Origin: Bacteroidota bacterium
Lineage (GTDB): Bacteria; Bacteroidota; Rhodothermia; Balneolales; HLUCCA01
Direction: 5' to 3'
Assembly: GCA_020832235.1 (NCBI GenBank)
Contig: JAFIEZ010000003.1
Location: 76,224 to 140,223 of the forward strand
DNA length: 64,000 nt
Part shown: in pieces, positions 6,207-23,190 of the stretch
Numbering within the stretch: position 1 is the first letter of the stretch
How the letters are laid out: each line of letters starts with the position of its first letter
Notes under the pieces: model-generated
The model's database searches: none
What the model saw: the letters and a program-made list of their open reading frames with translations, nothing else
What the model was told of the DNA's origin: nothing
Position numbers and translations under genes: made by a program

Positions 6207-7238
6207 ATGCAAACCCGATTCGACTACATTTTCCACGAAAACCTTGATTTTCACGCAGCCTTGCAGGATGTACTGGAGTATCAGCTGGGTATGAATCGCG
6301 TATACCGTACGTTTTATGATGGAGTACAATCAATGAACCTGGGCGGAAGGCCGCCCCAGAACCAGGACGAAGCGCTACCTTTGGGCGGGGGAGAAGTGCT
6401 GCCGCTGATGCCGGTAGAAGCCTTTCGCGATGCTCGTGTATACGCTGCCGGCAATCATCCCCCGGAGCTTTTCTTCCAAAGCAGCGGCACAACTACCTCC
6501 GTGCGCTCACGGCATGAGGTGGCATTCGCGGAGGTGTACAGAACATCCATTTTTGCGGGAATGCAGGCGTTTTATGCCCTGGAAAACATGGTGGTGCTGG
6601 GATATACACCCGGCTACAATGAAAATCCAAACAGCTCACTGGTGTGGATGATCAACGCGCTGATCGACTCCGACCCCACAGGACTCAGTCGTTTTTTGCC
6701 TATCGGACAATCCATTTCCCGCGATCTGCTCAACGAAATCGAGCGAAATGAACGGTCTGTACTGCTTTTTGGAGCCGCTTTCGGTCTGGTAGACCTGGCT
6801 GAGCAGCATCCTACTACCTTGCCTGAGGGCAGTATTATTATGGAAACCGGCGGTATGAAAACCTATCGTCGGGAAATGTCTCGTCAGCAGCTCCATGAAA
6901 TGCTTGCCGATGGCTTTGCACTTCCGTGGGAATCCATTCACTCGGAGTATGGCATGACAGAGCTCCTGTCGCAGTCGTATGCATTGGGTGATGAATGGTT
7001 CAGATGTCCGGCCTGGGTGCGTACAAGTATCCGCAATCCGTTGAATCCGGTGCAGGAACTGCCGGCCGGACAGGAGGGACTCATTGGTGTAATCGACCTT
7101 GCTAATTGGGCTTCGTGTCCGTTCGTGTTAACCGGCGACAGGGGTGTGCAGCGCGCCGACGGAGCGTTTCAGGTGCTGGGAAGGTGGAGTCAGTACCATT
7201 TACGGGGATGTAATTTTCTGCTGGAGGACGGACCATGA
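6207..7238 (+). CDS. LuxE-like acyl-protein synthetase (ANL-superfamily adenylating enzyme)
   Basis: The ORF track starts at TTG 6183; the first ATG is at 6207. P-loop-like FFQSSGTTTSVRSRH and METGGMKTYRREM motifs are typical of LuxE-family proteins. ATGA overlap with the LuxC-like gene. Confidence 0.6.
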   Translation: MQTRFDYIFHENLDFHAALQDVLEYQLGMNRVYRTFYDGVQSMNLGGRPPQNQDEALPLGGGEVLPLMPVEAFRDARVYAAGNHPPELFFQSSGTTTSVRSRHEVAFAEVYRTSIFAGMQAFYALENMVVLGYTPGYNENPNSSLVWMINALIDSDPTGLSRFLPIGQSISRDLLNEIERNERSVLLFGAAFGLVDLAEQHPTTLPEGSIIMETGGMKTYRREMSRQQLHEMLADGFALPWESIHSEYGMTELLSQSYALGDEWFRCPAWVRTSIRNPLNPVQELPAGQEGLIGVIDLANWASCPFVLTGDRGVQRADGAFQVLGRWSQYHLRGCNFLLEDGP

Positions 7239-8284
7239 ACGAGCATCTTGAGCATCGCCTGCAGTGCGTCGTTAATGCCCTGAATGTGTGGCTAGACGGA
7301 TATCAACGCCCGGGAAGTCCATTGCAACGGGCGATGGAGAAAACAGCTGAACAAGGACTTTTCCCCATACAGGATATCCGTTTTGGTGTTGAACATTTGT
7401 GCAATACGGTGTTGAATGGAGAGCCGGAGTCCTGGCTTCGGGCTGTTCTGGCTGATGGTTTTCGCGATAACCGCTCTGAGACGGTCCTTTGCCTGCACGC
7501 TGGAAACCTGCCCCTAGTCGGATTTCAGGATGTGCTTGCGGTGCTGCTATCCGGGGCGGGATATGCCGGTAAGCTATCGCGCAAAGATCCCTGGTTAATC
7601 GCCTCCTTTCTGGAATGTTTGCGAACTTTGGATGCATCTATTCCCATTGAAACCACACTGGATTTGGCCACCTACGAAGGCCGGCAGTTCAAACGGTGGA
7701 TGTTTGCCGGCTCGGATGACGGATTGCTGCGCGTATCGGCAGCGCTGCAAAACATGGGCGTGCTGCACAAAGATGCGCAGGCTTTACTCCGAACCGCGCA
7801 CTTTTCGGCGGCCTATTTGTCCGAGTGGAGCGATGCCCACATCGAAGACCTGATTGAATCCATACTTCGATACGACGGAAAAGGATGTCGGTCGGTGGCC
7901 ATCATCTATGCCCCGATTCCGCTTGAAAAAGTGGCGGCGTCCCTGCAAAAGGCCGGCGCACAGTGGCTGGAGCGCAATCGATTTGATGGCAGTTCCGCGC
8001 CGATAGTGGGCTTTCGCGCCGCATACAACGCTGCCGTTGGAATCCCCTCGGTTTTGGTGGGCACCCAACTCATTCAGGAAGGGGTAGCCTCACCCGACCA
8101 CCCTGAAATCGTGTACTGGCAACGCATTAAAGATGTTCACGAGCCTCGTTTAGCCTATGGGAAGGCGTTGCAGGAGGTGTATGGTGATGCAGGAGCCCCG
8201 TTGCACGAGGCACAGCGGCCACCCATCAGCTGGAGACCCGATGGCAGCGATCCGCTGGCCTGGTTACTTGGCGTTAACGGGTGA
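7235..8284 (+). CDS. LuxC-like acyl-CoA reductase family protein
   Basis: 349 aa. HAGNLPLVGFQD motif and size fit Bacteroidota LuxC-family proteins. Translationally coupled to the LuxE-like gene. Confidence 0.55.
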   Translation: MNEHLEHRLQCVVNALNVWLDGYQRPGSPLQRAMEKTAEQGLFPIQDIRFGVEHLCNTVLNGEPESWLRAVLADGFRDNRSETVLCLHAGNLPLVGFQDVLAVLLSGAGYAGKLSRKDPWLIASFLECLRTLDASIPIETTLDLATYEGRQFKRWMFAGSDDGLLRVSAALQNMGVLHKDAQALLRTAHFSAAYLSEWSDAHIEDLIESILRYDGKGCRSVAIIYAPIPLEKVAASLQKAGAQWLERNRFDGSSAPIVGFRAAYNAAVGIPSVLVGTQLIQEGVASPDHPEIVYWQRIKDVHEPRLAYGKALQEVYGDAGAPLHEAQRPPISWRPDGSDPLAWLLGVNG

Positions 8285-8300
8285 GGATCTGTATGGAGGT

Positions 8301-8359
8301 CGTAATGCTCATTCATTGCATCGCAGTCTGTAAGGCGGAACCTTGATGGGGCGCTATTT
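8301..8359. repeat. left copy of the 59-bp direct repeat
   Basis: cgtaatgctcattcattgcatcgcagtctgtaaggcggaaccttgatggggcGctattt. Identical to 13645-13703 except for one base. It covers the stop codon and 3' flank of the 125-aa ORF. Confidence 0.95.
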
Positions 8360-8731
8360 CTTAATGCGGTCAAGTACGATTACGCGCTGACCATTCCAGG
8401 TGTCTTCGTTGGTAATTTCGTAGACGTAGCGTGTTTTTTTGTAGTCTATGGAAAGCGCATCAAGGGAGGTAGAAAAATTGATAAGGTGGGATTTGTCCGT
8501 GCTGACAATTTTGCGGGTGTCATCGGTTTTTTGTTTGAAGAAGACTAAAAACAGCTTTTGCTCGGGTTTATGCTGGTCGTCAACGGCGAGGGCCACGTGG
8601 AGATCTTTCCCCTGTGTGATATCCAGCTTGAGCGCCGCACTTTTATTGAAGGATAAGTGGCCATTGGAGTAGATGGTTACCTTTGCTGTAGCTGCCAGAC
8701 CTTTGGATCCGGATACAATAGTAAGTTTCAT
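8354..8731 (-). CDS. hypothetical protein, 125 aa, no recognised family
   Basis: Clean ORF with no signal peptide. A decayed partial second copy lies at 13698-13755. Confidence 0.55.
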   Translation of the reverse strand: MKLTIVSGSKGLAATAKVTIYSNGHLSFNKSAALKLDITQGKDLHVALAVDDQHKPEQKLFLVFFKQKTDDTRKIVSTDKSHLINFSTSLDALSIDYKKTRYVYEITNEDTWNGQRVIVLDRIKK

Positions 8732-8905
8732 AGGGTTTTGTAGATGCTGCTAGTTGGTAGGGTTTATAGTAGGGAATGGTATATACTTAATATATATATA
8801 TTAGGATTTAAAGGTATTTAAAATACCGGCCAGATGCCCCGTAGAGCACCTGGCCGTCAAGGTTTTGATTGCGTGGTATGAGCAGGTTTGCCAGTCTTGG
8901 TTGCA

Positions 8906-10660
8906 TCAGGGTATGTCTTGATACCTATTATAAAACTGCATATTAAAGCCCGTTTCTCTGGAAGAACTCAAAGAGTTACTTTGCCACTCAGTACCGCCAT
9001 GTTCAATGACAAAATCTCTGATTTGCTGTCTGATTGCTTGCGTCAAATACTGCTGCTGAGCAAACGGTGCATACCCGTGTAGAATCTTGATATTTCTAAC
9101 ATCTTTATCAAGAAAAGTCCTGCGCACAGGAATAACACCATAATCAGGATGCAAATAATCAAAACCTAACTGACGCATAATAGTTGGTGGATCCCTTGAG
9201 CTACCAAACATAGGAATTCGCCAAATATCTTCTTCTTGATAAGACTCCTTAATTTCAGAAACAAACATATTCTCCACTTCACCAATAAATCTAGACTCAT
9301 TAACAGCTCCCCCTGCATAAACTGCAGGTCTGCTCACCGCAGCATCGTAATACTCTCGAGGAAATCTTGCAAGAATTTTAGATAACGTTTTATCTTGAGT
9401 ATAAGGAGGCCCTCTGTTTCGAACATCGTTTTCGGCCATAATGTTGCCATTGGTAAGGCCATAATACAAAACACCATTTCTTAAATGAGAGGTCATAGCA
9501 CCCCCCCTATTAATCAAATGATCAAAAAAATCAGTATTATCATCTATGATCCTTTCACTAATATCTTCGCTGTAGCCCTCAATCATTTCAACGAGATATG
9601 GATTAATACCAATTTTTGGACCATCTAAAATACTTGTCAAATCACGATAAAAAAGCCTAAAACCCTCTTTTACATCATCAGATGCCAAAGCCCCTGGAAC
9701 ACGCCCAACAGTGCAAACAGTATCTGTCCAACTAGTCCAGCCTTCTTTGCAATTAGAATCCCCCCAGTTAAATGCAAAAACAAGTGGCTCAGAGGCCAAA
9801 GGAACCCTTGGAGAGCCAAAACCATTGGCTGTTTGCCTGCTTAGCTCCTCAAGCGTATAACCTCCACGAATACCTCTGTAAACAACAGGGTAGCTGTAAT
9901 AATTATTCTCTAACGTTTCAATAACTGTAGATAAATTGCGATTCAAACTCAAATAAAAATCAACATCGAAACCAGGACCTAAAATCACTGCCTTTTCTGC
10001 CTCATAAGACAAAATACTAAGTTGTAATTCATGCATGATTTGAGGTCCACTTAAAACAAAAGTTTCATTTCTTCCATGCCAGAAACTACCATTATACTCA
10101 GATGGCAAAAAATCTCTACCTAAACGAATACGAGAAATGTTACTAATATATTCACCATTGCCCTCAACAAAATTTTCAAAACCCACAGGACCTCCTTTAC
10201 TTGGAAGCCTCATAGAAGGATTAGCATGCAAAAAAACAGCATACTCCCCACGAGGAACTCGAGCGTTAAGTAGGCCGTTTTGGCTGGTTAGCGTGGTGTC
10301 AAAGTCGATCTCCCTATGGGTCAAGTGCATCTGGGCACCATCGACGGGGGTTTCATCAAGGTAGGTTCTCCAAACAATATCTAAATCAGCAAGACCAAGT
10401 AACCTAAAATCTCCAGTCTTAGAAGAAACCCCTCCTTCATCATCAAAGACCCTAACCAAATAATTTAAATCCCTTTGAGAACCATCATCAAATCTTCTAG
10501 AAATAACAGTATCTAAACTAGAAGAATTAATATCAAATGACTCCAAGCCAGAACCGAAATCAAACTCAACTCTTTTTAAATAAAAATCGTCACTAGCCAT
10601 AATTCTCGCACTAAACTCATCAACACCTAGACCGCTTGTTTCAACACTTAAATTAGGCAA
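8906..10660 (-). CDS. hypothetical extracellular protein; downstream part of a gene split by an in-frame TGA
   Basis: 584-aa ORF whose tracked start is TTG. It is in the same frame as 10706-11584, separated by one TGA plus 15 sense codons. A beta-sandwich-like repeat module continues across the stop. There is a Cys pair in NCKEGWTSWTDTVC. Confidence 0.5.
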   Translation of the reverse strand: MPNLSVETSGLGVDEFSARIMASDDFYLKRVEFDFGSGLESFDINSSSLDTVISRRFDDGSQRDLNYLVRVFDDEGGVSSKTGDFRLLGLADLDIVWRTYLDETPVDGAQMHLTHREIDFDTTLTSQNGLLNARVPRGEYAVFLHANPSMRLPSKGGPVGFENFVEGNGEYISNISRIRLGRDFLPSEYNGSFWHGRNETFVLSGPQIMHELQLSILSYEAEKAVILGPGFDVDFYLSLNRNLSTVIETLENNYYSYPVVYRGIRGGYTLEELSRQTANGFGSPRVPLASEPLVFAFNWGDSNCKEGWTSWTDTVCTVGRVPGALASDDVKEGFRLFYRDLTSILDGPKIGINPYLVEMIEGYSEDISERIIDDNTDFFDHLINRGGAMTSHLRNGVLYYGLTNGNIMAENDVRNRGPPYTQDKTLSKILARFPREYYDAAVSRPAVYAGGAVNESRFIGEVENMFVSEIKESYQEEDIWRIPMFGSSRDPPTIMRQLGFDYLHPDYGVIPVRRTFLDKDVRNIKILHGYAPFAQQQYLTQAIRQQIRDFVIEHGGTEWQSNSLSSSRETGFNMQFYNRYQDIP

Positions 10661-10705
10661 AACATTATCCCTGTAGATTTCAACAGAAACAGTTTGAGTA
10701 TTTTT

Positions 10706-11584
10706 TCATCCAAAAGAATCAAAAATATCAACACTATGATCAATACTTAAAGGCGTATTTAATCTTAGTGAAGAATAATCAGAAGACCATTCAAAACTAA
10801 GTAAGCTTCCACCATCACCAACATATAACTCACTAACACCAGTATCTAACCTAGTTACTCTAACACTATCAATACCATCTTGATTCCTAACCCTTGTTTC
10901 AGGAGTATAAATACTTGTAGCCTCATTTCTTCTTGGAACCCAAACCAAAATATTTGAAGCAGCATCCAAAACATCTAAATCAAAAACAGAAGAGTAATCT
11001 CTGCCTTTTAGATCAGAGCCTTCAACACTAATTCTTCTTTTACCTGGAGCATCAAACTCCTTAGAAACATCAAAAACAACCTCGGATCTGCCTTCGCCAT
11101 CTAAAACCCAGGAACTGTCAGGGCTTGTAACTCTAACTAAACCAACACCATCTAAATCAGAAACTTTAAGCTTTGCATCATACGAAACACCCACTCTGGC
11201 TTCTAGAGGAGAAAGCTCTATTTGCATAGGATTATCTTTATCTTTGTCTCCAAATAGCGCACCACAACCAGACAGTACAAAAATCATCAATAGATTAACC
11301 ATCCATTTTGTGGTGCGGGTCAGGCTGCTTTTAATCTGTGCCTGTGTGCCAAATAGTTCTTCGTATAACTGCTGCATGCGCTGGGCGCCAGTCTGCTCTA
11401 CAGCCGCAATGGTGCGGGCCATGTGCAGGCGAACCTGCTTTTCGTAACGCCGTTGGGCTATTTTACTGCGTTCATGCCGGGTGCGCTTGGCGTACCGGTT
11501 AAAATTGACGTAGAAGCGGTTCTTCCAGTTAAAATAGTCGTGACTGCGTTGACGACCAATGCGAACAGGGGGTAGAGTTTGCAT
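10706..11584 (-). CDS. hypothetical membrane-anchored or lipoprotein surface protein with repeat modules; upstream part of the split gene
   Basis: 292 aa. Basic N-terminal region, then WMVNLLMIFVLSGC (TM/lipobox-like), then two repeat modules of about 85 aa (DGVGLVRVTS / DGIDSVRVTR). Confidence 0.5.
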   Translation of the reverse strand: MQTLPPVRIGRQRSHDYFNWKNRFYVNFNRYAKRTRHERSKIAQRRYEKQVRLHMARTIAAVEQTGAQRMQQLYEELFGTQAQIKSSLTRTTKWMVNLLMIFVLSGCGALFGDKDKDNPMQIELSPLEARVGVSYDAKLKVSDLDGVGLVRVTSPDSSWVLDGEGRSEVVFDVSKEFDAPGKRRISVEGSDLKGRDYSSVFDLDVLDAASNILVWVPRRNEATSIYTPETRVRNQDGIDSVRVTRLDTGVSELYVGDGGSLLSFEWSSDYSSLRLNTPLSIDHSVDIFDSFG

Positions 11585-11832
11585 ACGTGATGACCATAAT
11601 GTGATAGCTTACGTCACATTATAATAGTTTCGGAAAAATAATACTAAGGAAAATCGGTTATGTATTCGGGAGGAGCATCAACATGTTGCATAGAATAGTT
11701 TATAATAGTTTCTATAAATTGGCCTTTGGTCAATTATTATGTACTATAATAAACTAGTATGAACGTATTGCAGGTTTGAAATGGTGTAGATAAATTGATT
11801 GAAAGCCAATTTTCTGCAAATTAAATGAACTA

Positions 11833-12618
11833 ATGGCGCCCAATCAAAAGAATACCAAACTTAATAAACTGCTTTTAGGGTGGAAGGATGGGGTAGTATA
11901 TACCTCTCCTTGGCTAACGGAATCAGGGTATACTCCAGATATGCTTTTTGGCTACAAGGAAAGCAATTGGGTGAAATCGATAGGAAGGGGGGCCTATGTA
12001 AAAGCCCAAGACAACCCCTTATGGGAGGGAGCCGTAAATGCACTACAGGAACAGCTCAATTATTCCATACATATTGGCGGACAAACGGCATTGGAGCTAC
12101 AAGGAGTTCGTCACAATGTAAGCCTAGATTTGAACCAATGTCATTTATATACCCCTTCAAAAAGAAAGCTTCCAACCTGGTTTACTTCTTATAAGTGGGA
12201 CGTTGATGTAAAACTGCATGTATCTACATTGTTTGGCAAGAAAAATCTTGGTCTAAAATCGCTGGATTCAAGAAACAGGATATCCATACTTGTGGCAGAA
12301 CCGGAACGCGCGATACTGGAATTACTTTCTCATGTGAATTCAAAAGCGAGGTTTTTAAATGCATGGCACCTGATAGAGGGGATGATGACGCTTAGGTCCA
12401 ACTTGGTTCAGAATCTATTAATGGACTGTAAATCTGTGAAAGTGAAGCGGTTGTTCCTATTCATGGCGATGAGCCATGCGTTGCCCTGGTACGAAAAACT
12501 AGAGATTAGTGAATTAGATCTCGGTTCAGGTAAAAGAACAATCGTTAAAAATGGAAAATTGAATACTACATTCAACATAACTGTGCCTGAAGAACTGGTA
12601 GATGAGTCATGGAAATAA
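11833..12618 (+). CDS. AbiEi-family antitoxin/transcriptional regulator (type IV TA, abortive infection)
   Basis: 261 aa. The N-terminal region (..GVVYTSPWLTESGYTPDMLFGYKESNWVKSIGRGAY) resembles AbiEi wHTH domains. 10-nt overlap with the AbiEii gene. Confidence 0.7.
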   Translation: MAPNQKNTKLNKLLLGWKDGVVYTSPWLTESGYTPDMLFGYKESNWVKSIGRGAYVKAQDNPLWEGAVNALQEQLNYSIHIGGQTALELQGVRHNVSLDLNQCHLYTPSKRKLPTWFTSYKWDVDVKLHVSTLFGKKNLGLKSLDSRNRISILVAEPERAILELLSHVNSKARFLNAWHLIEGMMTLRSNLVQNLLMDCKSVKVKRLFLFMAMSHALPWYEKLEISELDLGSGKRTIVKNGKLNTTFNITVPEELVDESWK

Positions 12619-13553
12619 GGAATACCAGATATTTCAAACAAGTTGATCTGCTTTTATCAATGCTGCCAATCGTTTCAAGAATTGAAGATTTTGCGTTGAA
12701 AGGAGGAACGGCAATAAACCTATTTGTTCAGAATCTTCCACGTTTATCGGTAGATATTGATTTGGCTTACCTTCCGATACAAGACAGAAAAACAACAATG
12801 GAGCGAATCGATTTCCATCTGAAAGAGATCGGAAACCAATGCCAAAAGTACCTGCCTGGGATTAGATTGAATTACAAAGAGAACCAAAATGTATCGTATG
12901 GCCTGATAGTTAATCGGGATGACATTGTTGTCAAGATTGAACCAAATTCAACAATTCGTGGCTCGGTATTTCCACCAGTTGAATTGCCTTTAGTAAAAAA
13001 CGTTGAGGTAATGTTTGGAAGAGCAATGGAAATACGAACGTTATCGGTTGAAGATCTTTATGGAGGTAAACTCTGTGCTGCCCTAGACCGACAGCATCCC
13101 CGAGATTTGTTCGATGTGTATCATTTGTATAGAGAAGAAGGCATCACGGATAGAATAAGACAAGCATTTATCGTCTATCTCTTAAGCCATAACCGGCCGA
13201 TAGCTGAACTGCTTGATCCACAATTAAAAGACGACCTTCATGAAACGTTTCGGGAGTCATTTGAAGGCATGGCTTTTGACCCCATACCACTGAATGACAT
13301 GGTGGAAGTCTGGAAAAAAGTTGTACAAAAATTGAATGCTGATTTTACTGAGGAAGAGCGGGAGTTTATACTCAGTTTTAAACGAAAATCACCAAAATGG
13401 GATCTTTTTCCCCACAACACAATCAAAAATCTCCCTGCCATCCAATGGAAAATGATGAATCTGGAAAAGATGAGTCCTGTAAAACACCAAGCTGCCTATG
13501 AAAAACTGGAGTATGTGTTACGAAGAGGGGCTCGACGAACGATGGCTTTGTAG
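12609..13553 (+). CDS. AbiEii/AbiGii-family nucleotidyltransferase toxin
   Basis: 314 aa. The KGGTAINLF....RLSVDIDLAY nucleotidyltransferase motif and downstream DL(Y)GGKLCA are typical of the AbiEii family. Confidence 0.8.
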   Translation: MEIRNTRYFKQVDLLLSMLPIVSRIEDFALKGGTAINLFVQNLPRLSVDIDLAYLPIQDRKTTMERIDFHLKEIGNQCQKYLPGIRLNYKENQNVSYGLIVNRDDIVVKIEPNSTIRGSVFPPVELPLVKNVEVMFGRAMEIRTLSVEDLYGGKLCAALDRQHPRDLFDVYHLYREEGITDRIRQAFIVYLLSHNRPIAELLDPQLKDDLHETFRESFEGMAFDPIPLNDMVEVWKKVVQKLNADFTEEEREFILSFKRKSPKWDLFPHNTIKNLPAIQWKMMNLEKMSPVKHQAAYEKLEYVLRRGARRTMAL

Positions 13554-13569
13554 TTCGCTACTTAAACGA

Positions 13570-13641
13570 CTGGGTCAGTTTACACTGAAACAGGTGGGTC
13601 AGTTTCGAGTGAAATGGGTGGGTCAGTTTGTACTGAAATTG
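13570..13641. repeat. three tandem 24-bp repeats (consensus sTGGGTCAGTTTnnAsTGAAAnnG)
   Basis: Units at 13570-13593, 13594-13617 and 13618-13641. They end 3 nt before the right 59-bp repeat. Confidence 0.9.
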
Positions 13642-13644
13642 TCA

Positions 13645-13703
13645 CGTAATGCTCATTCATTGCATCGCAGTCTGTAAGGCGGAACCTTGATGGGGCACTA
13701 TTT
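13645..13703. repeat. right copy of the 59-bp direct repeat
   Basis: Matches 8301-8359 at 58 of 59 positions (G/A difference at repeat position 53). Confidence 0.95.
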
Positions 13704-13755
13704 TTGAAGAAAACATGAATAGCGATTGCTCAAGTTTATGCTAGTCATCTACTGC
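13698..13755 (-). pseudogene. decayed internal fragment of a paralog of the 125-aa ORF
   Basis: The minus strand reads AVDD*HKLEQSLFMFSSKI*, against AVDDQHKPEQKLFLVFFKQK in ORF 8354-8731. The fragment joins directly onto the same 3' flank (the 59-bp repeat). Confidence 0.6.
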
Positions 13756-13769
13756 GGGGGGCTCAGTTT

Positions 13770-14021
13770 CTAACTTTCTGTCCACAGAATTTTATAGCCA
13801 CTTGCCATATATCTTTCTGGCTTCATTGTGGTCATTGAGTTTACCGTCATCAGCATCTTTATGCCCTTATTGATGGACTCCTTTTCAGTAGCTGATAAAC
13901 GCTCCCCAAACGCGTCCTTTTCACTTTTCCGAATGGCCAGTACTTTTTCAATAATACTTGGATTATCAATGGTCGAGAGCCATTGGATCAATTCAAGTGT
14001 TTTAAGATCGTGTTGAGCCAT
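13770..14021 (-). pseudogene. degraded type II TA module: frameshifted antitoxin fused to a 12-codon RelE/ParE-type toxin stub
   Basis: The N-terminal part (LELIQWLSTIDNPSIIEKVLAIRKSE...SATEKESINKGI) matches antitoxins found next to ParE-like toxins in Bacteroidota. After ggcataaag the +1 frame reads KDADDGKLNDHNEARKIYGKWL*, the expected antitoxin C-terminus. The tracked frame instead runs into MASGYKILWTES*, a toxin N-terminus cut short. Confidence 0.5.
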
Positions 14022-14192
14022 GTAAGGGTTTTGTGGTTGCAGGTTTACCTTGTAGACGCAGCTCGTCTTAAAATAGTTGTACGATGCGTAAGCTGTATGA
14101 TGTACATGCAGTCAAATACGTAATTGGACTACAAAAAAGCCATAATATCATTATCTTGTGAGGCTAAACACGAAACTAATGAAATCCTCCGT

Positions 14193-16841
14193 ATGAGCGA
14201 GTATAATCCCTCGAATATTGAACCCAAATGGCAGTCGTACTGGCTTGAAAACAAGACCTTTAAAACCGACGATGCCGACAGGTCCCGCCCGAAATTCTAC
14301 ATTTTGGATATGTTTCCCTATCCGTCCAGCGCGGGACTACATGTAGGGCATCCTGAAGGTTATACCGCTACCGATATTCTGGCTCGTTACAAGCGTATGA
14401 AGGGTTTCAACGTGCTTCATCCGATGGGCTGGGATGCATTCGGACTGCCTGCCGAGCAATATGCCGTGAAAACAGGCACGCATCCGCGGGTCACTACCCA
14501 GTACAATATTACCCAGTTCAGAAGGCAGCTTCAGGCGATTGGTTTCAGCTACGATTGGGACCGTGAAGTGGATACCACCGACCCGGCCTATTTCCGCTGG
14601 ACACAGTGGATTTTCCTTCAGCTCTACCATCAGGGTCTGGCCTATGAGGCCAGTGTGCCCGTGAACTGGTGTCCTGCCCTGGGTACGGTTCTTGCCAACG
14701 AAGAGGTTATCGACGGCAAGAGCGAAGTTGGCGGTTTCCCGGTGATTCGTAAGCCGATGCGTCAATGGATGCTCAAAATTACAGCGTATGCCGAGCGTCT
14801 GCTCAACGACCTTGACGAGCTGGACTGGCCCGATTCCGTTAAAGAAATGCAGCGCAACTGGATAGGTAAGTCGGTAGGGGCGGATGTGCGCTTCGATGTA
14901 GACGGACATGACGAGGTGATTGAGGTCTTTACTACCCGTCCTGACACCCTTTGGGGAGCGACCTACATGGTTCTGGCTCCCGAACATCCGCTGGTAGATG
15001 TTATCACCACTTCGGAGCAGCGCGATGCCGTTGAGCAATATCGCAAGGATGCATCCCTCAAAAGCGACCAGGACCGAACCGATACACGCAAGAAAAAAAC
15101 CGGAATGTTCACCGGCGGATATGCCGTGAATCCGGTTAATAATGCCCGTATTCCGGTATGGGTTGCCGATTATGTACTCATTAGCTACGGAACCGGCGCT
15201 ATTATGGCCGTTCCCGGACATGACGAGCGGGACTGGGAATTTGCCAAGACATTTGGACTTCCTATTGTGGAGGTGGTTGCCGGTGGAAATGTTGAGGAAG
15301 CGGCCTATACCGACAATCAGGATGGGGTGTTGACAAACTCTGCCAGCACCGGCATCAGCCTTGACGGACTCAACGTTCCCGAGGCCAAAAAACGCATCAT
15401 TACCTGGCTGGAAGAGCAACAAAAAGGTCGGGGAACGGTTAACTACAAACTTCGCGACTGGTTGTTTAGTCGACAGCGATATTGGGGCGAACCCATTCCG
15501 ATTATTCATGTAGATGGACAGCCTAAGCCTGTAGCGGAATCGGCTTTGCCACTCGAACTCCCTGAAGTGGAGAAATACGAGCCAAGCGGTACCGGAGAGT
15601 CGCCCCTGGCAACCATCGAAGAGTGGGTGAATACGACGGATCCCGAAACCGGAAAGCCGGCACGTCGCGAAACGAATACCATGCCTCAGTGGGCGGGTTC
15701 GTGCTGGTATTACCTGCGGTATATCTCGCCGGACTATGAGCTGGGACCGGTGGATCCCGAGAAAGAGAAGTACTGGATGCCAGTGGATATGTATGTTGGC
15801 GGTGCCGAACATGCCGTGTTGCACTTGCTTTATGCCCGATTCTGGCACAAAGTACTCTACGATTTGGGCGTGGTCAGTACCAAGGAGCCGTTTCAGCGAT
15901 TGGTAAATCAGGGCATGATTCTCGGTGAAATGGAGTACACGCTCTTCAAAGATGCCGATGGAGCGTATTTGTCGCCAGACCAGGCCGAGCGATACGATGG
16001 TGAAGTGCAGCGCATCAAGCTTACCGACGAAGACATCGAGAAAACATCCACTGGTTTCGCTCTGAAAACCGATGCTGTGCAGAAATACGGACTTTCCGAA
16101 GCCGCTGCAGGCACGTATGTGATCGAAGCCCGGTCGTATAAGATGTCGAAATCCCGCGGAAATGTGATTAATCCCGACGATGTTATCAAAGAATATGGCG
16201 CCGATGCCCTAAGGCTTTATGAAATGTTCATGGGTCCGCTCGAACAGGTTAAACCCTGGAGTATGCGTGGCGTGGAAGGCGTGTTTCGTTTCCTGAAACG
16301 CGTGTGGCGCGTGTATGTGGATGACCGCACTGACGAACTCAACGCCGATCTGGTGGATGTGGAAGCAACCCGTGATCAGCTCAAGGTGCTCCATGAAACC
16401 ATCAAAAAAGTTACCGAAGATATTGAAGGCGGACGATACAACACCGCCATTTCTCAGCTCATGATTTTCAACAATGAAGCCATGAAATGGGAGCAGAAGC
16501 CGAAGTCGGTGATGAATACGTTTTTGGTGTTGCTTTCGCCCTTTGCTCCGCATATTGCCGAGGAATTGTGGAGTCGACTCGGAAACCCGAACACCATCGC
16601 TGCTGAAAACTGGCCGAAATTCGATGAGTCCTATCTGGTAGCCGATGCCTTTACCTATGCCATACAGGTGAATGGAAAGGTGAGAGGTACGCTGGAGCTG
16701 CCGGCCGATAAGGCAACCGACAAAGATCTCGTTCTGTCTATGGCCAAGGCTGAGCCGGGCGTAGCGAAGTACCTGGCCGAAGGCAACATCGTAAAAGAAG
16801 TCTTTGTGCCCAAGAAAATTGTAAACTTTGTAGTGAAATAA
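14193..16841 (+). CDS. leuS: leucine--tRNA ligase
   Basis: Class I aaRS. HIGH-type motif ([16 protein letters not shown]), KMSKS present (YKMSKSRGN), CP1 editing insertion. ATG 14193 ([14 protein letters not shown]) is preferred over the tracked TTG 14124. Confidence 0.95.
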
Positions 16842-18261: not shown

Positions 18262-19137
18262 TCAATCTTCTTCGACGTTCTCCTCTGCAACCTCGTTCCA
18301 ATCTGGACCGGTAACCGGGTTGGTGATGATTACATTGGTATCTACATTTCGGATAACAGTGCCGGTAGTAGAACCCATTTTCAGGTAATCTAGCCCGGTT
18401 CGTCCCAGTGTTGCCATTACAACCAGATTGTATTCATTATCACTTATGTGTCTGGTTATAAACTCATGGGCTGACTTTTTGGTGAGTTTCGCTTCATAGG
18501 TAACCCGATCCGCAATACTCGGGAAGTATCGCTCAACATAACTCCTGAATTTTTTCTCTTTAGTGCGTACATAGGCCTCCAGATGTGTAGCAGGCTCGGT
18601 GCTGTGATAGGTGACAGCGTAGAGTAAGTGTATAGAGGCGTCTGAGAGCTCTGCAAGTTTAGCTGCAAGGCCATAGGAGTTCTTCGCATTTTGAGAGAAG
18701 TCAGTAGTTACCAGAATTTTATTCAACGGGAACAAAGAATCTTCATTTTTAACCACAAGAACCGGTGGCTTTGATAAACGAACAACTTTTTCAGTTACCG
18801 AGCCCAGCATAAGTTTACTGATACCGGTACGGCCGTGAGACGACATTACCACAAGGTCATACTCTTTTGCTACATCAATAATAGCATCAACCGGTTTATG
18901 TTCAGATACCAGGCATTCACCCTTTACGGATGCATCAAGATGTGAGCTTACAAGGGCATCAAGGTCTTCTTTGGCTGTTTCAATAGATGAGTCTGAACGT
19001 TCATAACGATTTTTTTCAAAAGAATATAATACACTTACTTTCCCATCCACTAATGTGGCCATTTTGCCGGCTACACGGAGTGCTTTTAAGCTAATTTCAG
19101 AGAAATCAGTAGGTACCAGTATAGTTAGTTTTTTCAC
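18262..19137 (-). CDS. universal stress protein, tandem UspA domains
   Basis: 291 aa. Two Usp repeats, each ending in a (M)SSHGRTG / ATLGRTG ...GS(T/V) ATP-binding-type motif. Confidence 0.8.
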   Translation of the reverse strand: MKKLTILVPTDFSEISLKALRVAGKMATLVDGKVSVLYSFEKNRYERSDSSIETAKEDLDALVSSHLDASVKGECLVSEHKPVDAIIDVAKEYDLVVMSSHGRTGISKLMLGSVTEKVVRLSKPPVLVVKNEDSLFPLNKILVTTDFSQNAKNSYGLAAKLAELSDASIHLLYAVTYHSTEPATHLEAYVRTKEKKFRSYVERYFPSIADRVTYEAKLTKKSAHEFITRHISDNEYNLVVMATLGRTGLDYLKMGSTTGTVIRNVDTNVIITNPVTGPDWNEVAEENVEED

Positions 19138-19345
19138 GACGACCTCCTCGTATACAAATAATTTATTAACGGTTTTTATACTTAGAATATGCTACAAATT
19201 TACGGTTTAAAAAAATATGATGAATGTCAGAAAAAGCGCTTTTTTATCAATTATGAATGATTTGTGTTTAAAAGTTGAATTTTTTGTGCGTGGAAATAGC
19301 CGTATATTCTTTTCTTGTTTTATATCATCTCAAAGTCCTATCTAT

Positions 19346-20206
19346 ATGCTTCGTGTATTCTTTATAACAACATTGCTGTTAAGTGGTACCCTTTCATTTA
19401 ATACTTCAGCAGACGATGTGGAACGTATTACAAAGTGGCTAGAGGAAGGGCAAGAACGCTTTCATGAAATATATGATCACGAGCTAACGAGAGAGCAACA
19501 AATCAGTGAGTTGATTCGCTTCTATTCAACGCGACATTTGGGTATAACCTATGTGGGAGGTTTATTGGAAGAACCCCCAGTTGAAACGCTCGTGATAACG
19601 CTGCAGGGCTCTGATTGCGTATTGTTTGTTGAACACGCTATGGCCATGACCATGACTACGATGCAGGGATCAACTGATTTTGAGCAGTTTGCATCAAATT
19701 TGGCGCTTTTCAGATACGGGGATGGTATTATTGATGGTTATGCCAGCAGACTACATTACTTCTCCGACTGGTTAAGAACGAATGCCTCATTCAGCAGAAT
19801 ACGTATTCTTTTTCAGTACGATGAGTTGCCATCGCTGTCTAATGTGCATTTCATGTCCAGCAATAGAGAGTCTTACAGACAGTTAGCTGAGAGCGACTCT
19901 CTATTTGCACGCATAGGTCAGCGCGAGCAGGAACTCAATAGCTATAGTGGCTTACGGTTTATTCCCCAGGATGATATCCCGAATTTTGAAACGCAATTGA
20001 AAACCGGCGATATACTCTCATTTGTAACAACCATCGATGGTTTGGATATTTCACATACCGCAATAGTAAAACGAGAAGGGGACAGCGTTGGCTTTTGGCA
20101 TGCTTCAACTACCGGCTCTGTAATCGAAGATCCCAAAACCATTTATGAGTACACGCGCGATCGCCGAAATGTGAAGGGTATTATAGTAGCACGACCACTA
20201 TTTTAA
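19346..20206 (+). CDS. DUF1460-family (amidase-like) secreted protein
   Basis: ATG 19346 gives the signal-peptide-like start MLRVFFITTLLLSGTLSF. DCVLFVEHAMAM, LHYFSDWL and GDILSF...DISHTAIV segments fit DUF1460. Confidence 0.55.
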   Translation: MLRVFFITTLLLSGTLSFNTSADDVERITKWLEEGQERFHEIYDHELTREQQISELIRFYSTRHLGITYVGGLLEEPPVETLVITLQGSDCVLFVEHAMAMTMTTMQGSTDFEQFASNLALFRYGDGIIDGYASRLHYFSDWLRTNASFSRIRILFQYDELPSLSNVHFMSSNRESYRQLAESDSLFARIGQREQELNSYSGLRFIPQDDIPNFETQLKTGDILSFVTTIDGLDISHTAIVKREGDSVGFWHASTTGSVIEDPKTIYEYTRDRRNVKGIIVARPLF

Positions 20207-20215
20207 AGAAATCTG

Positions 20216-20860
20216 TTAAAAATCGAGTGTTCGCAATAACCTGCGTGCATCTGTGGTGTAACTGAACTCTCGAAGTTTCTCTCCGTCCAGCTCATATGTA
20301 ATTGTAAATCGAATATCTTCGGCCAGTTGCGGTGGAGTGTTTAGCAGAAATGTAGTTTGGTCAGCCACTGTTGGTTCTCCCTGCAAATAAGACTCAAGGC
20401 TTTGAGTCGTAGCCCCGATGGCCAGATAGATCGTGTAAACGTTAAACAAAGACCGGAGTTCGCTCCCTGCAGGAAATTCCGGAGTGTAATCTTTATCCGC
20501 GGTAATAGATATATTTAATACCCGCTCATCGGATGTTATGTTTGGGATTACGCAAACGGCTCTGGCCTCATTTATGGGTTGAAACAGACTGGCAATAGGT
20601 GCGTTTTCGCTGGTGTAGGTTTCGGCAATGGGTACAAAGCTGACCGCGTATTCACTAAATAGCACAGTACGACCACCAATTTGCTGAAATTGCGGTACGT
20701 CTGACCCCGGAACAAAAAGCATCCGGTTTTCCAACGCCGCAAAGTCTAGTGTTCGAAAACGGTCGTCAAAAACGCAGGAGTCACCTAGGTCACATGAAAT
20801 TGTGAAAAAAGTAGATCCAATGAGGGTTAACATCAGTACGAGAGTCGCTCTTTTCAGCAT
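20216..20860 (-). CDS. hypothetical lipoprotein
   Basis: 214 aa. Signal peptide with a Cys (LIGSTFFTISC). No recognised family. Confidence 0.5.
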   Translation of the reverse strand: MLKRATLVLMLTLIGSTFFTISCDLGDSCVFDDRFRTLDFAALENRMLFVPGSDVPQFQQIGGRTVLFSEYAVSFVPIAETYTSENAPIASLFQPINEARAVCVIPNITSDERVLNISITADKDYTPEFPAGSELRSLFNVYTIYLAIGATTQSLESYLQGEPTVADQTTFLLNTPPQLAEDIRFTITYELDGEKLREFSYTTDARRLLRTLDF

Positions 20861-21008
20861 ATTCTATCTTCGGTAATTTTGTTACAGCTATTTGCGCAGT
20901 ACTAATGCGCTTTGAATTCAAATATACAGCAAAAAAGCCGGTTTAGGGGGAGTATTAATCCGAATTATTCTGCCGAGGGCTGTAATTTCATATCTATCCG
21001 GAAGGGTA

Positions 21009-21521
21009 TTAACCCAGTAAGTTGAAAATAAATTTTAGTACCGGTGGGGCAGCTATTATGAGTGTGAACAGATTGTTACTGTCTTTAAAATTTCGGGAGA
21101 TGTACATAGAAGACAATATTAAAACAACATTTCCATCAGATACTTCATAGAGTCCACGGAGGCGGTTGGTTTTACCTTTTACCCGGGTTTCTGAACCTTC
21201 TGTGAGCTCCCATTTACTCGTCCATACAGACGAATGGTTCCAATGATATACTTTATTGCCAAGCTTGACGGTGGCCTTGTTTTTTAACAGGCCTTTATTT
21301 AAGTCTATGGTTCCCACTACCTGACTGCTGGAAAGGTCAATGATATCTGTAGTTGACTTAAACCATCCTCTTTTTTTGAATTTAAAGCGGTGCTTTAAGA
21401 GTGTTCCTTCGGCATTATCTTTTAAAAAACCATATCGGTATCTGCCTACTTTTTCATTTTTGATGAAAAAAGTAAAGCGATTTAGAAATAGCGTTTTTTC
21501 CCAGGCAAGCGTGATATTCAT
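21009..21521 (-). CDS. hypothetical protein with a C-terminal hydrophobic helix
   Basis: 170-aa Lys-rich ORF. No recognised family. Confidence 0.4.
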   Translation of the reverse strand: MNITLAWEKTLFLNRFTFFIKNEKVGRYRYGFLKDNAEGTLLKHRFKFKKRGWFKSTTDIIDLSSSQVVGTIDLNKGLLKNKATVKLGNKVYHWNHSSVWTSKWELTEGSETRVKGKTNRLRGLYEVSDGNVVLILSSMYISRNFKDSNNLFTLIIAAPPVLKFIFNLLG

Positions 21522-21587
21522 GGTTTTTAATATAATGGGTAAACGTAATTGTGCTATTTACGCAAAAACGGCAACCAAGTTGCCATG

Positions 21588-22499
21588 TTACGGCAGATCT
21601 TCAAACCATGCAATCGCGCGTTTCATATCTTCATCAAAATTCTTGACTAAGCCATCGTGTGTGTCGTTTTCAAGTCGTATAAGTTCAGCATTGGGGATGG
21701 AAGACGCCACGAAATGACCGTGAGAAAAAAGCACAATACGATCTTCGGTTCCATGCATCACAAGTGTCGGTGCCATGATCTTCGACAAATCATAAACAGG
21801 GAGTTCTGACATGTTAATTAAGTCGTTTTCAAGGCCATCCTGTACCGTATGTACCGGAAAAAGGCTCTTCAGATAAAGAGAAGCAATACGTCTATTGTAG
21901 GGATTTCTATCACGTCTTGAAACCCATTGAAATGCAATCCAAAGACCAAATTCGGTATTGGTTATTCGGTCGGCTAGTCGAGGTGCAGCGAACTCAATGG
22001 CCATACTCACCGCACCATACATGACTAATACCGCAGTTTTGTCGGGATGCCTCTTTGCAAATTGTAGTGCGGAAGGTCCGCCTCCCGAGATGCCAAGAAC
22101 AAATACGTTGTGGATACCCAGATAGGTGAGTAATTCAGCGTAAGCATCAGCCTGTTCTTGCGGTGTTCGACCAACATCTAATGATGATCGCGCATAACCC
22201 GGTCTGGAAACGATGAGTACGCGATAACCAGCCTGTGTGAAAACTTCAGGAGTCATATGAGAATGGGTACCTGGAGTGCCATGAAGTAATAAAATGGTTT
22301 GATTACCATCTCCTTCAAGCCTGTACTCCAATGCACCCTTACTCAGGTTCGCAATTGCTGCATTACCTGGAAGTTTGATATCCGTTTGAGAACGCCAATG
22401 CAGAAAGTACCCGTACAGCGATGCTAGTGCCAGCAGGGCTGTCAATAATGCAAGAATCACTGTATAGGCAAGTATCCTTCGATTCATTAACGTCTTCAA
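21588..22499 (-). CDS. alpha/beta-fold hydrolase with N-terminal membrane anchor
   Basis: 303 aa. HGTPG oxyanion region, GISGGG nucleophile elbow, C-terminal D...H. Confidence 0.75.
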   Translation of the reverse strand: MKTLMNRRILAYTVILALLTALLALASLYGYFLHWRSQTDIKLPGNAAIANLSKGALEYRLEGDGNQTILLLHGTPGTHSHMTPEVFTQAGYRVLIVSRPGYARSSLDVGRTPQEQADAYAELLTYLGIHNVFVLGISGGGPSALQFAKRHPDKTAVLVMYGAVSMAIEFAAPRLADRITNTEFGLWIAFQWVSRRDRNPYNRRIASLYLKSLFPVHTVQDGLENDLINMSELPVYDLSKIMAPTLVMHGTEDRIVLFSHGHFVASSIPNAELIRLENDTHDGLVKNFDEDMKRAIAWFEDLP

Positions 22500-22513
22500 A
22501 CCATTGCTGTCGG

Positions 22514-22993: not shown

Positions 22994-23190
22994 ATCAGAA
23001 TAATATTAGTTGATAATTTAGGTGTTCATACTACTATAACGTAAAGTCGCAACATATCGTTGTGCTTTGAAGTCCTATAAAATTGGCTCACGCAACCGGT
23101 TACGTAAGTTTCTGGCGATTTACTTAGTTTTTGAGCCGGAAAAGAAGGAACTTATCGCATATATATTCACCTATGTTAAACAATATTACG

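What the first reader, a model, noticed from the sequence alone, without database searches (positions are those of the whole stretch)
8301..13703. 59-bp direct repeats (58/59 identical) bracket a 5.3-kb AT-rich islet between the luxC-like gene and leuS
Seen directly: 8301-8359 and 13645-13703 both read cgtaatgctcattcattgcatcgcagtctgtaaggcggaaccttgatggggc[g/a]ctattt. The DNA between them is visibly AT-richer than the flanking luxC-like and leuS genes. It holds only accessory content: a 125-aa orphan, a split surface-protein gene and AbiEi/AbiEii. Inference: long direct repeats at the borders of a compositionally foreign block are the classic attL/attR signature of an integrated element, or the scar of a recombination-mediated insertion. 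No integrase, transposase or tRNA gene lies in or beside the islet. If it moves, it must be mobilised in trans; otherwise it is a fossil.
Basis: partly seen in the sequence, partly recalled or inferred. Interest (0 to 1): 0.7.

Follow-up and report, generated by a model that had tools for sequence, protein, structure and literature searches.

The report
Repeat-flanked accessory islet, decayed tandem insertion
The 59-bp direct repeats are real and enclose horizontally acquired genes, but they mark the joint between a newer gene cassette block and the wreck of an older related one in a variable hotspot, not the clean ends of one mobile element; this is ordinary genomic-island biology.

Summary
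8301-8359 and 13645-13703 are 58/59 identical, with 52 bases exact. There are no other copies in the window, and contig depth indicates about two per genome.

The organism is an uncultured Balneolales bacterium. GC falls from about 0.53 to 0.40 between the LuxC-like gene and leuS.

The repeats do not delimit the foreign DNA:
- Low-GC DNA continues 490 bp past the right repeat. It holds an orf125 pseudogene fragment and a decayed small gene.
- A 29-nt AbiEii fragment abuts the left repeat.

The islet is a mosaic. In other Balneolales, the surface-protein/orf125 operon (72% nt identity) and the AbiEi/AbiEii cassette (87-94% nt identity) are separate units. Those units lack an integrase and are flanked by tRNA-Arg 3'-end direct repeats.

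A strain about 95% identical carries the same repeat-islet-repeat structure. Its two copies share changes relative to the window (7/59 between strains, 1-2/59 within a genome), so the copies evolve in concert. It also has an outer repeat of the LuxC 3' end.

No integrase, transposase or tRNA was found. No empty site or excision junction could be tested.

Best reading: Campbell-type insertion of a related islet into an older one, followed by decay and homogenisation of the repeats. This is a new member of a known kind, of low to moderate interest.

The parts
7235..8284 (+). LuxC-like acyl-CoA reductase gene, the left core flank. Its last 4 codons and stop overlap the abiEii-like fragment.
   Evidence: Weak Pfam LuxC match. 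Homologue in L005 directly upstream of leuS, with the C-terminus aligned to residue 345/349.
8272..8300 (+). 29-nt remnant of an AbiEii gene. It encodes LTGEDLYGG, against LSVEDLYGG at 13039-13067, and directly abuts R1.
   Evidence: 25/29 identity, E 1e-4 to 1e-3. Two of the 4 differences are synonymous (read from the sequence). 13039-13220 is the AbiEii stretch most conserved at DNA level across phyla.
8301..8359 (.). Repeat copy R1 (59 nt). It contains the stop codon and last codon of orf125 on the minus strand.
   Evidence: Two-fold unitig depth. No significant fold. No Rfam match.
8354..8731 (-). orf125, a 125-aa protein of unknown function, the last gene of the surface-protein operon.
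   Evidence: Only one homologue cluster among 5.8 billion proteins (P0002, 66% identity), again downstream of the large protein. No family or fold match.
8906..11584 (-). Large lipoprotein-like surface protein gene, homologous to a single 894-aa ORF in L085. It is interrupted by one in-frame TGA at 10706-10708, which splits it into orf292 and orf584.
   Evidence: tblastn of the L085 894-aa protein aligns residues 1-893 to 11584-8909 in one frame at 66% identity.
11664..13553 (+). AbiE type IV toxin-antitoxin cassette. It comprises a promoter region with two AAATTG-N9-CAATT(T/A) inverted repeats (11717-11737, 11792-11812), abiEi 11833-12618 and abiEii 12609-13553.
   Evidence: Pfam and PADLOC matches. 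92-94% nt identity to cassettes in L092/L095/L097/L098/L104 and 87-91% to L103. Homology ends at the abiEii stop for the L092 group and L103, and at 13511 for L104. Inverted repeats.
13564..13644 (+). Three and a bit tandem 24-nt units (GGGTCAGTTTnnnnnTGAAA). This is a copy of a short repeat dispersed elsewhere in this genome and in the sister strain, and it abuts R2.
   Evidence: The same 74 nt occur in another 1453-nt contig at genome depth, in 18.7-kb and 24.5-kb contigs of organism A, and in run X8.
13645..13703 (.). Repeat copy R2.
   Evidence: Also present in MAG contig L099.
13703..13760 (-). Pseudogene fragment of a second orf125 homologue (AVDD*HKLEQSLFMF against AVDDQHKPEQKLFLVF). 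Relative to copy 1 it lacks 174 bp (8360-8533).
   Evidence: blastn 76% over 59 nt, E 2e-6. Translation.
13770..14021 (-). orf83, a decayed member of a widespread ~77-aa Bacteroidota family. Its C-terminal third no longer matches the family.
   Evidence: 50 homologues that match only about 57% of the query. Alignment. GC 0.399 for 13704-14192.
14193..16841 (+). leuS, the right core flank.
   Evidence: Best LeuS identity is 71%, to Balneolales MAGs and one MAG labelled Chitinophagales. Start codon as annotated in L099.

Best explanation
The LuxC-like/leuS interval of this Balneolales genome is a strain-variable insertion hotspot. It holds at least two generations of related accessory modules.

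Proposed history:
- A younger block of about 5.3 kb entered by a single reciprocal crossover (Campbell-type) at a short shared segment, R. The block carries the orf125 and surface-protein operon, the AbiEi/AbiEii toxin-antitoxin cassette, and a 74-nt dispersed repeat.
- It entered an older resident module of the same organisation, abiEii > R < orf125. That crossover produced the two direct copies of R.
- The older module then decayed by deletion. What remains is a 29-nt abiEii fragment left of R1, and an orf125 pseudogene fragment plus a degenerate small gene right of R2.
- R is the only uninterrupted homology left between the two modules. Recombination or gene conversion between the copies keeps them nearly identical.

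Present state:
- No recombinase is encoded nearby, so today the islet is at most passively mobile. It could be lost by R x R deletion, or exchanged between strains through the flanking core genes.
- The AbiE module plausibly selects against its loss.

Shown: the repeat, its copy number, the remnants, the mosaic origin, the concerted evolution, and the absence of a local integrase.

Inferred: the order of events, the crossover at R, and the stabilising role of AbiE. Whether the original crossover was catalysed by a site-specific recombinase acting in trans or by RecA is not decided.
For: 1. Remnants lie outside both repeat copies.
- 8272-8300 matches abiEii 13039-13067 (25/29).
- 13703-13760 matches orf125 8534-8592 (76%), with an in-frame stop and a 174-bp deletion.
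- orf83 matches its family over only about 57% of its length.
- Low GC continues to leuS.

2. The content is a mosaic.
- Window 8355-11595 is about 72% identical to a 6.1-kb unit in another organism (L085). That unit's two contig ends are the same tRNA-Arg 3' half.
- Window 11664-13552 is 87-94% identical to a 2-kb AbiE unit. In L103 that unit sits between a complete tRNA-Arg(TCG) and a partial 3' copy, and in L092 it is bounded by the same tRNA 3'-half sequence on both sides.
- Neither unit contains an integrase.

3. The two copies evolve in concert.
- In a strain about 95% identical (runs X5/X6), the two copies share a 36-nt unitig at double depth that carries 2 changes relative to the window.
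- They also share three further changes, at 8343, 8345 and 8347.
- Orthologous copies therefore differ at 7/59 positions, while paralogous copies differ at 1/59 (window) and 2/59 (sister strain).
- The same 12% divergence is seen in the neighbouring pseudogene fragment (7/58). The intact orf125 3' part shows only about 1 change in 130 nt.

4. The interval is variable.
- The sister strain has an outer 73-82-nt direct repeat of the LuxC 3' end.
- It also has about 2.75 kb of extra DNA between 13998 and 14003.

5. Synteny.
- LuxC-leuS adjacency without an islet occurs in L005.

6. Copy number and distribution of R.
- About two copies of R per genome by depth.
- R is absent from GTDB representative genomes, JGI metagenomes, IMG/VR and all fetched loci.

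7. No mobility genes.
- No integrase, transposase or tRNA was found in the window.
Against: - No genome with the precursor state (one R between abiEii and orf125 remnants) or with an empty site was found, so the order of events is reconstruction only.
- The 29-nt abiEii match is short. It overlaps the native-looking end of LuxC, whose L005 homologue has the same length after WL[LV].
- The data do not distinguish insertion of a second, related islet from an in-situ duplication followed by unequal decay.
- If the two modules were already about 24% diverged when they met, a 59-nt identical block needs its own explanation. The candidates are function or later conversion.
- Islet depth is about 20% below flank depth in two runs (10.8 against 13-13.5, and 11.1-12.1 against 13.4-14.5). 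That would fit a minority of cells lacking the islet, meaning ongoing excision or deletion. GC bias can also explain it, and two other runs show no difference.
Confidence: 0.55

Rival explanations
1. R1 and R2 are working attL/attR sites of one integrative islet. A tyrosine or serine recombinase encoded elsewhere in the genome, or on a helper element, excises and integrates it in trans, making it a satellite or mobilisable islet.
For: - Direct repeats sit at or near a compositional step.
- R is far more alike (98%) than the adjacent homologous coding DNA (76%).
- Homologous cassettes in sister lineages sit in classical tRNA-3'-end repeat arrays and also lack integrases.
- The sister strain has a gene-3'-end type outer repeat.
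- Identity between the two copies is maintained in two lineages.
- Islet depth is slightly lower than flank depth in two runs.
- Tandem arrays with partial tRNA copies and degenerate remnants are described for tycheposons (bioRxiv 10.1101/2020.12.28.424599).
Against: - No recombinase was found in the 64-kb window.
- Foreign DNA and module remnants lie outside both repeats.
- R changes between strains as fast as a pseudogene (7/59). This is not expected for a protein-recognised core.
- R was found nowhere else.
- The same AbiE cassette uses tRNA-Arg repeats elsewhere, so cargo and repeat are uncoupled.
- No joints were seen, although contigs could not show them.
Confidence: 0.2
2. R is a functional cis element belonging to orf125, such as a 3' UTR, terminator, small RNA or protein-binding site. 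It was duplicated along with the gene and is conserved for that function. The islet borders are irrelevant to it.
For: - R starts at the stop codon of orf125.
- R also follows the orf125 pseudogene fragment in the same orientation.
Against: - No stable fold on either strand (z from -0.2 to +1.0).
- No terminator-like site in R.
- No Rfam match.
- The only orf125 homologue (L085-L091) lacks R, and homology stops exactly at the stop codon.
- Divergence between strains is 12%.
Confidence: 0.1
3. The repeat is a chance match, a dispersed intergenic repeat, a transposon target-site duplication, or an assembly artefact.
For: - The neighbouring 24-nt array is indeed a dispersed repeat.
- Short-read assemblies break at R.
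Against: - Zero matches in shuffles.
- Depth shows about two copies.
- The same structure is seen in five metagenome runs, in an independent MAG that assembled through R2 (L099), and in a 95% relative.
- 59 bp is far longer than known target-site duplications.
- No terminal inverted repeats lie inside the repeats.
Confidence: 0.03

Closest known systems
Integrase-type genomic islands and islets with attL/attR direct repeats, and tandem arrays at one att site (for example tycheposon arrays in Prochlorococcus, bioRxiv 10.1101/2020.12.28.424599)
   Same: - Accessory, lower-GC DNA lies between conserved genes.
- It is flanked by direct repeats.
- An older, degenerate module lies next to a younger one.
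- Sister lineages carry the same cargo in arrays separated by partial tRNA-Arg copies.
   Different: - There is no integrase in or near the islet.
- The repeat is not a tRNA or a recognisable gene 3' end of the host.
- The repeats do not coincide with the outer limits of the foreign DNA.
- No excision product was shown.
AbiE (AbiEi/AbiEii) type IV toxin-antitoxin / abortive-infection systems (Dy et al. 2014, PMC3985639)
   Same: - Bicistronic abiEi-abiEii with overlapping genes.
- Strong profile matches.
- Two inverted repeats upstream, like the AbiEi operator arrangement reported for S. agalactiae (PMC7319586).
   Different: - Function was not tested here.
- Here the pair behaves as a discrete 1.9-kb cassette, 87-94% identical across several Balneolales lineages and in different genomic contexts.
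Campbell-type (single-crossover) insertion and gene conversion between short direct repeats
   Same: - Direct repeats of a shared segment.
- Diverged homology continues beyond the repeats.
- The two copies are homogenised within each genome.
   Different: - The donor molecule and the enzyme (RecA or a site-specific recombinase) are unknown.
- The identical tract is only 52-59 nt.

Membership tests
Integrase-mediated genomic island (attL/attR) | Direct repeats at both borders of the foreign DNA | tested here: not met
   The repeats exist. However, low-GC DNA and gene remnants continue 490 bp beyond R2, and an abiEii fragment lies outside R1.
Integrase-mediated genomic island (attL/attR) | Integrase or recombinase gene in or next to the element | tested here: not met
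   Pfam scans of the islet ORFs and of most other ORFs of at least 110 aa in the window gave no recombinase or transposase domain. ORFs left of 5001 were judged only from the Pfam annotation on contig L001. Two large ORFs, 49709-53053 and 55865-59329, and the rest of the genome were not scanned.
Integrase-mediated genomic island (attL/attR) | Empty site with a single repeat copy in relatives | tested here: inconclusive
   All runs that hold the flanks also hold the islet. Only a family-level relative (L005) has LuxC-leuS adjacent, and it has no R.
Integrase-mediated genomic island (attL/attR) | Excision products (circular junction, deletion junction) | not testable with these tools
   The runs are held only as k=31 contigs. 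R (52 nt exact) is longer than k, so junction forms create no new words.
AbiE type IV toxin-antitoxin system | Adjacent AbiEi (wHTH antitoxin) and AbiEii (DUF1814 nucleotidyltransferase) genes | tested here: met
   Pfam AbiEi_3_N/AbiEi_3 (4e-26, 1e-41) and AbiEii (2e-36). PADLOC AbiEi 2e-79 and AbiEii 1e-111. The genes overlap by 10 nt.
AbiE type IV toxin-antitoxin system | Toxicity neutralised by the antitoxin; phage abortive infection | not testable with these tools
   Needs expression experiments.
Transposon with target-site duplication | Short target duplication (2-15 bp), terminal inverted repeats, transposase | tested here: not met
   The repeat is 59 bp. There are no terminal inverted repeats inside it and no transposase.
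Dispersed intergenic repeat (REP/MITE-like) | Many copies at unrelated loci | tested here: not met
   R has two copies in the window and about two per genome by depth. The adjacent 24-nt array does meet this feature.
Structured RNA / intrinsic terminator | Stable conserved secondary structure or an Rfam family match | tested here: not met
   Fold z-scores range from -0.2 to +1.0. No Rfam hit at E<=1. No terminator-like site in R.

The most novel reading that the evidence does not exclude
Balneolales carry a family of small, integrase-less, toxin-antitoxin-bearing cassettes. A recombinase encoded elsewhere moves them in trans. They can use different attachment sequences: the tRNA-Arg 3' half, the LuxC 3' end, and R. 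R1/R2 would then be live att sites whose identity is reset by repeated excision and reintegration.
Probability: 0.15. Interest if true: 0.55.

Novelty: new member of a known kind. Interest (0 to 1): 0.3.

Why it matters
The case shows how a small defence/toxin-antitoxin islet can sit in a core-gene interval with an att-like signature while lacking any mobility gene. It also shows that the repeat is better read as an internal joint of a decaying tandem array than as an element border. For annotation pipelines this is a caution against calling mobile elements from direct repeats plus a GC dip.

The recurrent AbiE cassette is a modest lead on how toxin-antitoxin cargo outlives or outruns the elements that carried it. 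The cassette is 87-94% identical in several Balneolales lineages. In the other lineages it is flanked by tRNA-Arg 3'-half repeats, and in none of them, nor here, is there an integrase beside it.

Tried and rejected
- R core searched in GTDB representative genomes, JGI metagenome contigs and IMG/VR: no hits.
- LuxC protein searched in GTDB representatives and JGI metagenomes to find empty sites: no relatives confirmed.
- R against all fetched loci with short-word blastn: nothing.
- Folding of R and its flanks on both strands, Rfam, and the terminator scan: nothing.
- Islet DNA against plasmids and phages: only the conserved AbiEii core matched distant plasmids, and no phage matched.
- orf125: no Pfam, NCBIfam or PADLOC match. 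The AlphaFold model had mean pLDDT 67.6, and Foldseek against PDB gave no hit below E 0.1.
- orf83: no profile match. I suspected from memory that it is an antitoxin with a truncated RelE/ParE start. This was not confirmed; it only belongs to an unnamed ~77-aa family.
- The 24-nt array considered as a transposon end (it ends in CA and has three direct sites): rejected for now. No inverted partner exists in the window even at 3 mismatches, and the other copies are short and flanked by unrelated DNA on both sides.
- Contigs of the sister strain could not be fetched, because its proteins are not in the protein index. Its 2.3-kb extra segment therefore remains unread.
- Runs X9 and X10 hold only conserved leuS or abiE pieces and say nothing about this locus.


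Full report
**Observation.** The repeat finder reports 8301-8364 and 13645-13708 at 95% identity. The first 52 nt are exact, and there is one mismatch within the 59 nt. With up to three mismatches there are only these two copies in 64 kb, and none in 100 shuffles. GC is 0.54 in the LuxE/LuxC-like genes, 0.40 between the repeats and 0.52 in leuS. The gene content is as described:
- The LuxE-like and LuxC-like genes lie on the left.
- orf125 has no family match.
- orf292 and orf584 together form one gene homologous to an 894-aa protein. It is interrupted by a single in-frame TGA at 10706-10708.
- AbiEi_3 and AbiEii give strong Pfam and PADLOC matches.
- ARAGORN finds no tRNA in the window.
- Pfam scans of most of the longer ORFs in the window show no integrase or transposase. 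Two large ORFs, 49709-53053 and 55865-59329, were not scanned.

**Source and copy number.** LeuS is at most 71% identical to anything among the GTDB representatives. The best hits are Balneolales/Balneolaceae MAGs and one MAG labelled Chitinophagales.

Exact-protein look-ups and k-mer searches place the window in a set of bioreactor metagenomes and in MAG GCA_022565535.1, which is 99.4-99.8% identical. All short-read contigs stop 30 nt into the repeat. This is what a k=31 graph does at a two-context repeat.

The 52-nt repeat unitig has depth 23, 31.8 and 20.2 in three runs. The sums of flank plus islet depth are 24.3, 25.6 and 19.0. R is therefore present about twice per genome. R was not found in GTDB representative genomes, JGI metagenome contigs, IMG/VR or any fetched locus.

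**The repeats are not the borders of the foreign DNA.**
- A sensitive self-comparison shows that directly after R2 the sequence 13703-13760 matches 8534-8592 inside orf125 (76%, E 2e-6). Translated, it reads AVDD*HKLEQSLFMF against AVDDQHKPEQKLFLVF. This is a pseudogene fragment of a second orf125 that lacks the 174 bp next to R.
- Beyond it, orf83 matches a widespread ~77-aa Bacteroidota family over only about 57% of its length. Its C-terminal third does not match.
- The stretch 13704-14192 has the same low GC as the islet (0.399).
- On the other side, the 29 nt that abut R1 (8272-8300) match 13039-13067 of abiEii at 25/29 (E 1e-4). They encode LTGEDLYGG against LSVEDLYGG, and two of the four differences are synonymous.
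- That AbiEii stretch is also the part most conserved at DNA level in distant plasmids.

Both repeat copies therefore sit in the same local arrangement, abiEii > R < orf125. At R1 the abiEii side is a stub and orf125 is intact. At R2 abiEii is intact and orf125 is a stub.

**The islet is a mosaic of cassettes that circulate separately.**
- orf125 has a single homologue cluster among 5.8 billion proteins (66% identity).
- Its contigs (L085-L091) carry an 894-aa protein, orf125, a DUF932-like gene and a different AbiEi_1/AbiEii pair. They match window 8355-11595 at about 72% nt identity, and homology stops at the orf125 stop codon.
- The two ends of the 6.1-kb contig L085 are the same tRNA 3' half, so that unit lies between direct repeats of about 46 nt.
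- The window's abiEi/abiEii region (11664-13552) is 92-94% identical to units in L092, L095, L097, L098 and L104, and 87-91% identical to L103.
- In L103 the unit lies between a complete tRNA-Arg(TCG) and a partial 3' copy, next to a PP2C/SpoIIE-like host gene. In L092 it is followed by TrkH/TrkA.
- None of these units contains an integrase.
- The closest AbiEii among the GTDB representatives is only 51% identical. The cassette is therefore a recent traveller within this clade.
- The cassette brings its own promoter region with two AAATTG-N9-CAATT(T/A) inverted repeats. This recalls the AbiEi operators described in PMC7319586.
- Between the abiEii stop and R2 lies a 24-nt tandem array. It is a copy of a short repeat found at other loci in this genome and in relatives.

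**A sister strain.** Runs X5/X6 hold a relative with 4-8% nucleotide divergence in the flanks and 4-5% over most of the islet, rising to 11% in one stretch. Shared 31-mer fractions are 0.35 for the islet, 0.12 for LuxE/LuxC and 0.23 for leuS. It has the same R-islet-R structure.

Concerted evolution of R:
- Its two R copies share a 36-nt unitig at double depth that differs from the window at two positions.
- Both copies also carry the same changes at positions equivalent to 8343, 8345 and 8347. They differ from each other at only two positions.
- Orthologous copies thus differ at 7/59, while copies within a genome differ at 1/59 and 2/59. This is concerted evolution.
- The 12% between-strain divergence of R equals that of the neighbouring pseudogene fragment (7/58). 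It far exceeds that of the intact orf125 3' end (about 1 in 130).
- The sequence of R therefore does not look constrained. Only the likeness of the two copies is maintained.

Outer repeat in the sister strain:
- The last about 73 nt of LuxC (8213-8285) form a unitig at double depth.
- The order there is LuxC, R1, islet, R2, orf125 fragment, orf83 up to 13998, 329 nt, a second LuxC 3' copy, 2337 nt of unread DNA, then 14003 and leuS.
- The window lacks those 2.75 kb. The interval is thus a hotspot that differs between close strains.
- In the family-level relative L005, LuxC and leuS are separated by only 494 bp.

**Interpretation.** The simplest account is the following.
- A circular, or circularly permuted, block carried ...abiEii-R-orf125....
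- It recombined by a single crossover at R with an older resident module of the same layout. This gave two direct copies of R.
- The older module was then whittled down by deletions that end at R.
- R, the only uninterrupted homology left, has been kept uniform by recombination between the copies.

R1/R2 are an internal joint of a decaying tandem arrangement, not the chromosome/element borders of one element.

Whether the crossover was site-specific or RecA-dependent is open.
- For a recombinase acting in trans: the sharp contrast between 98% identity in R and 76% next to it, and the classical tRNA-3'-end arrays in sister lineages. Those arrays resemble the sequential integrations and degenerate remnants described for tycheposons.
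- Against it: no recombinase in the window, neutral-like divergence of R, R found nowhere else, and cargo uncoupled from repeat type.

In-situ duplication followed by unequal decay cannot be excluded.

**Other rivals.** A cis-acting RNA or terminator is not supported, and the orf125 homologue lacks R. Chance, a dispersed repeat, a target-site duplication and an assembly artefact are excluded.

**Limits.**
- No empty site and no precursor state were found.
- Excision or deletion forms cannot appear in k=31 contigs.
- The islet has about 20% lower depth than its flanks in two of four runs. This could mean a minority without the islet, or GC bias.
- The sister strain's extra 2.3 kb, which might hold a recombinase, could not be read.
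- orf125 remains without a function.

**Verdict.** This is a new member of a known kind: a small accessory islet carrying a toxin-antitoxin pair in a core-gene hotspot. Interest is low to moderate. The most useful by-product is the recurrent, integrase-less AbiE cassette found in several Balneolales lineages.

Noticed in passing
window 13564-13644: There are three tandem 24-nt units (GGGTCAGTTTnnnnnTGAAA, each containing TCAGT-N4-ACTGA-like dyads) ending in ...TTGTCA exactly at the R2 border. The same 74 nt occur at another locus of this genome, at several loci of the sister strain, and in run X8. No other copy is in the window. Its nature is unknown (binding-site array, MITE-like element or transposon-end relic).
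   Followed up: partly
L092 1-2250; L103 258-2020; L104; L095-L098: A 1.9-kb abiEi_3/abiEii cassette 87-94% identical to window 11664-13552 occurs in other Balneolales. In L103 it sits between tRNA-Arg(TCG) and a partial 3' copy of it (40-46 nt direct repeats). In L092 and L104 it is bounded by the same tRNA 3'-half sequence on both sides. There is no integrase. In L103 abiEii carries an internal deletion.
   Followed up: partly
L085 1-6169 (also L086-L091): A 6.1-kb unit (894-aa surface protein, orf125 homologue, DUF932-like gene, AbiEi_1/AbiEii) has contig ends that are the same tRNA-Arg 3' half. Each end also has a similar terminator-like motif next to the repeat. It looks like one member of a tandem array at tRNA-Arg.
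   Followed up: partly
window 8213-8294 and 13998-14003 (sister strain, runs X5/X6): The sister strain has a second copy of the LuxC 3' end and about 2.75 kb of extra DNA inserted between positions equivalent to 13998 and 14003. The islet there is nested inside an outer direct repeat. The extra DNA could not be read.
   Followed up: partly
window 10706-10708: A single in-frame TGA splits the large surface-protein gene into orf292 and orf584. The sister strain has small indels at 10701-10712, so the gene may be intact there.
   Followed up: partly
window 9473-9554: A dense cluster of substitutions and small indels in orf584 separates co-occurring strains in runs X3 and X8 from the window sequence. 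This suggests a hypervariable or recombined patch in the surface protein.
   Followed up: no
window 11717-11737, 11792-11812 and 11600-11620: Two AAATTG-N9-CAATT(T/A) inverted repeats lie upstream of abiEi and are conserved in the cassette in other organisms; they are candidate AbiEi operators. A separate palindrome, TGTGATAGCTTACGTCACA, sits in the 79-nt window-specific spacer next to the orf292 start.
   Followed up: partly
window 8827-8856 (minus strand): A strong terminator-like hairpin (13 pairs, 9 G-C) lies between orf584 and orf125. orf125 may therefore be transcribed separately or by read-through.
   Followed up: no
window 18262-23000: This is a second low-GC stretch (0.42, locally 0.33). 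It carries ordinary-looking genes (universal stress protein, AmiA-like amidase, alpha/beta hydrolase, ferritin/Dps-like) and no mobility genes. It shows that GC is patchy in this genome.
   Followed up: partly
window 8272-8284: The last four codons and the stop of the LuxC-like gene are encoded by the abiEii-like fragment in another frame. The gene's present C-terminus may therefore be supplied by inserted DNA.
   Followed up: partly
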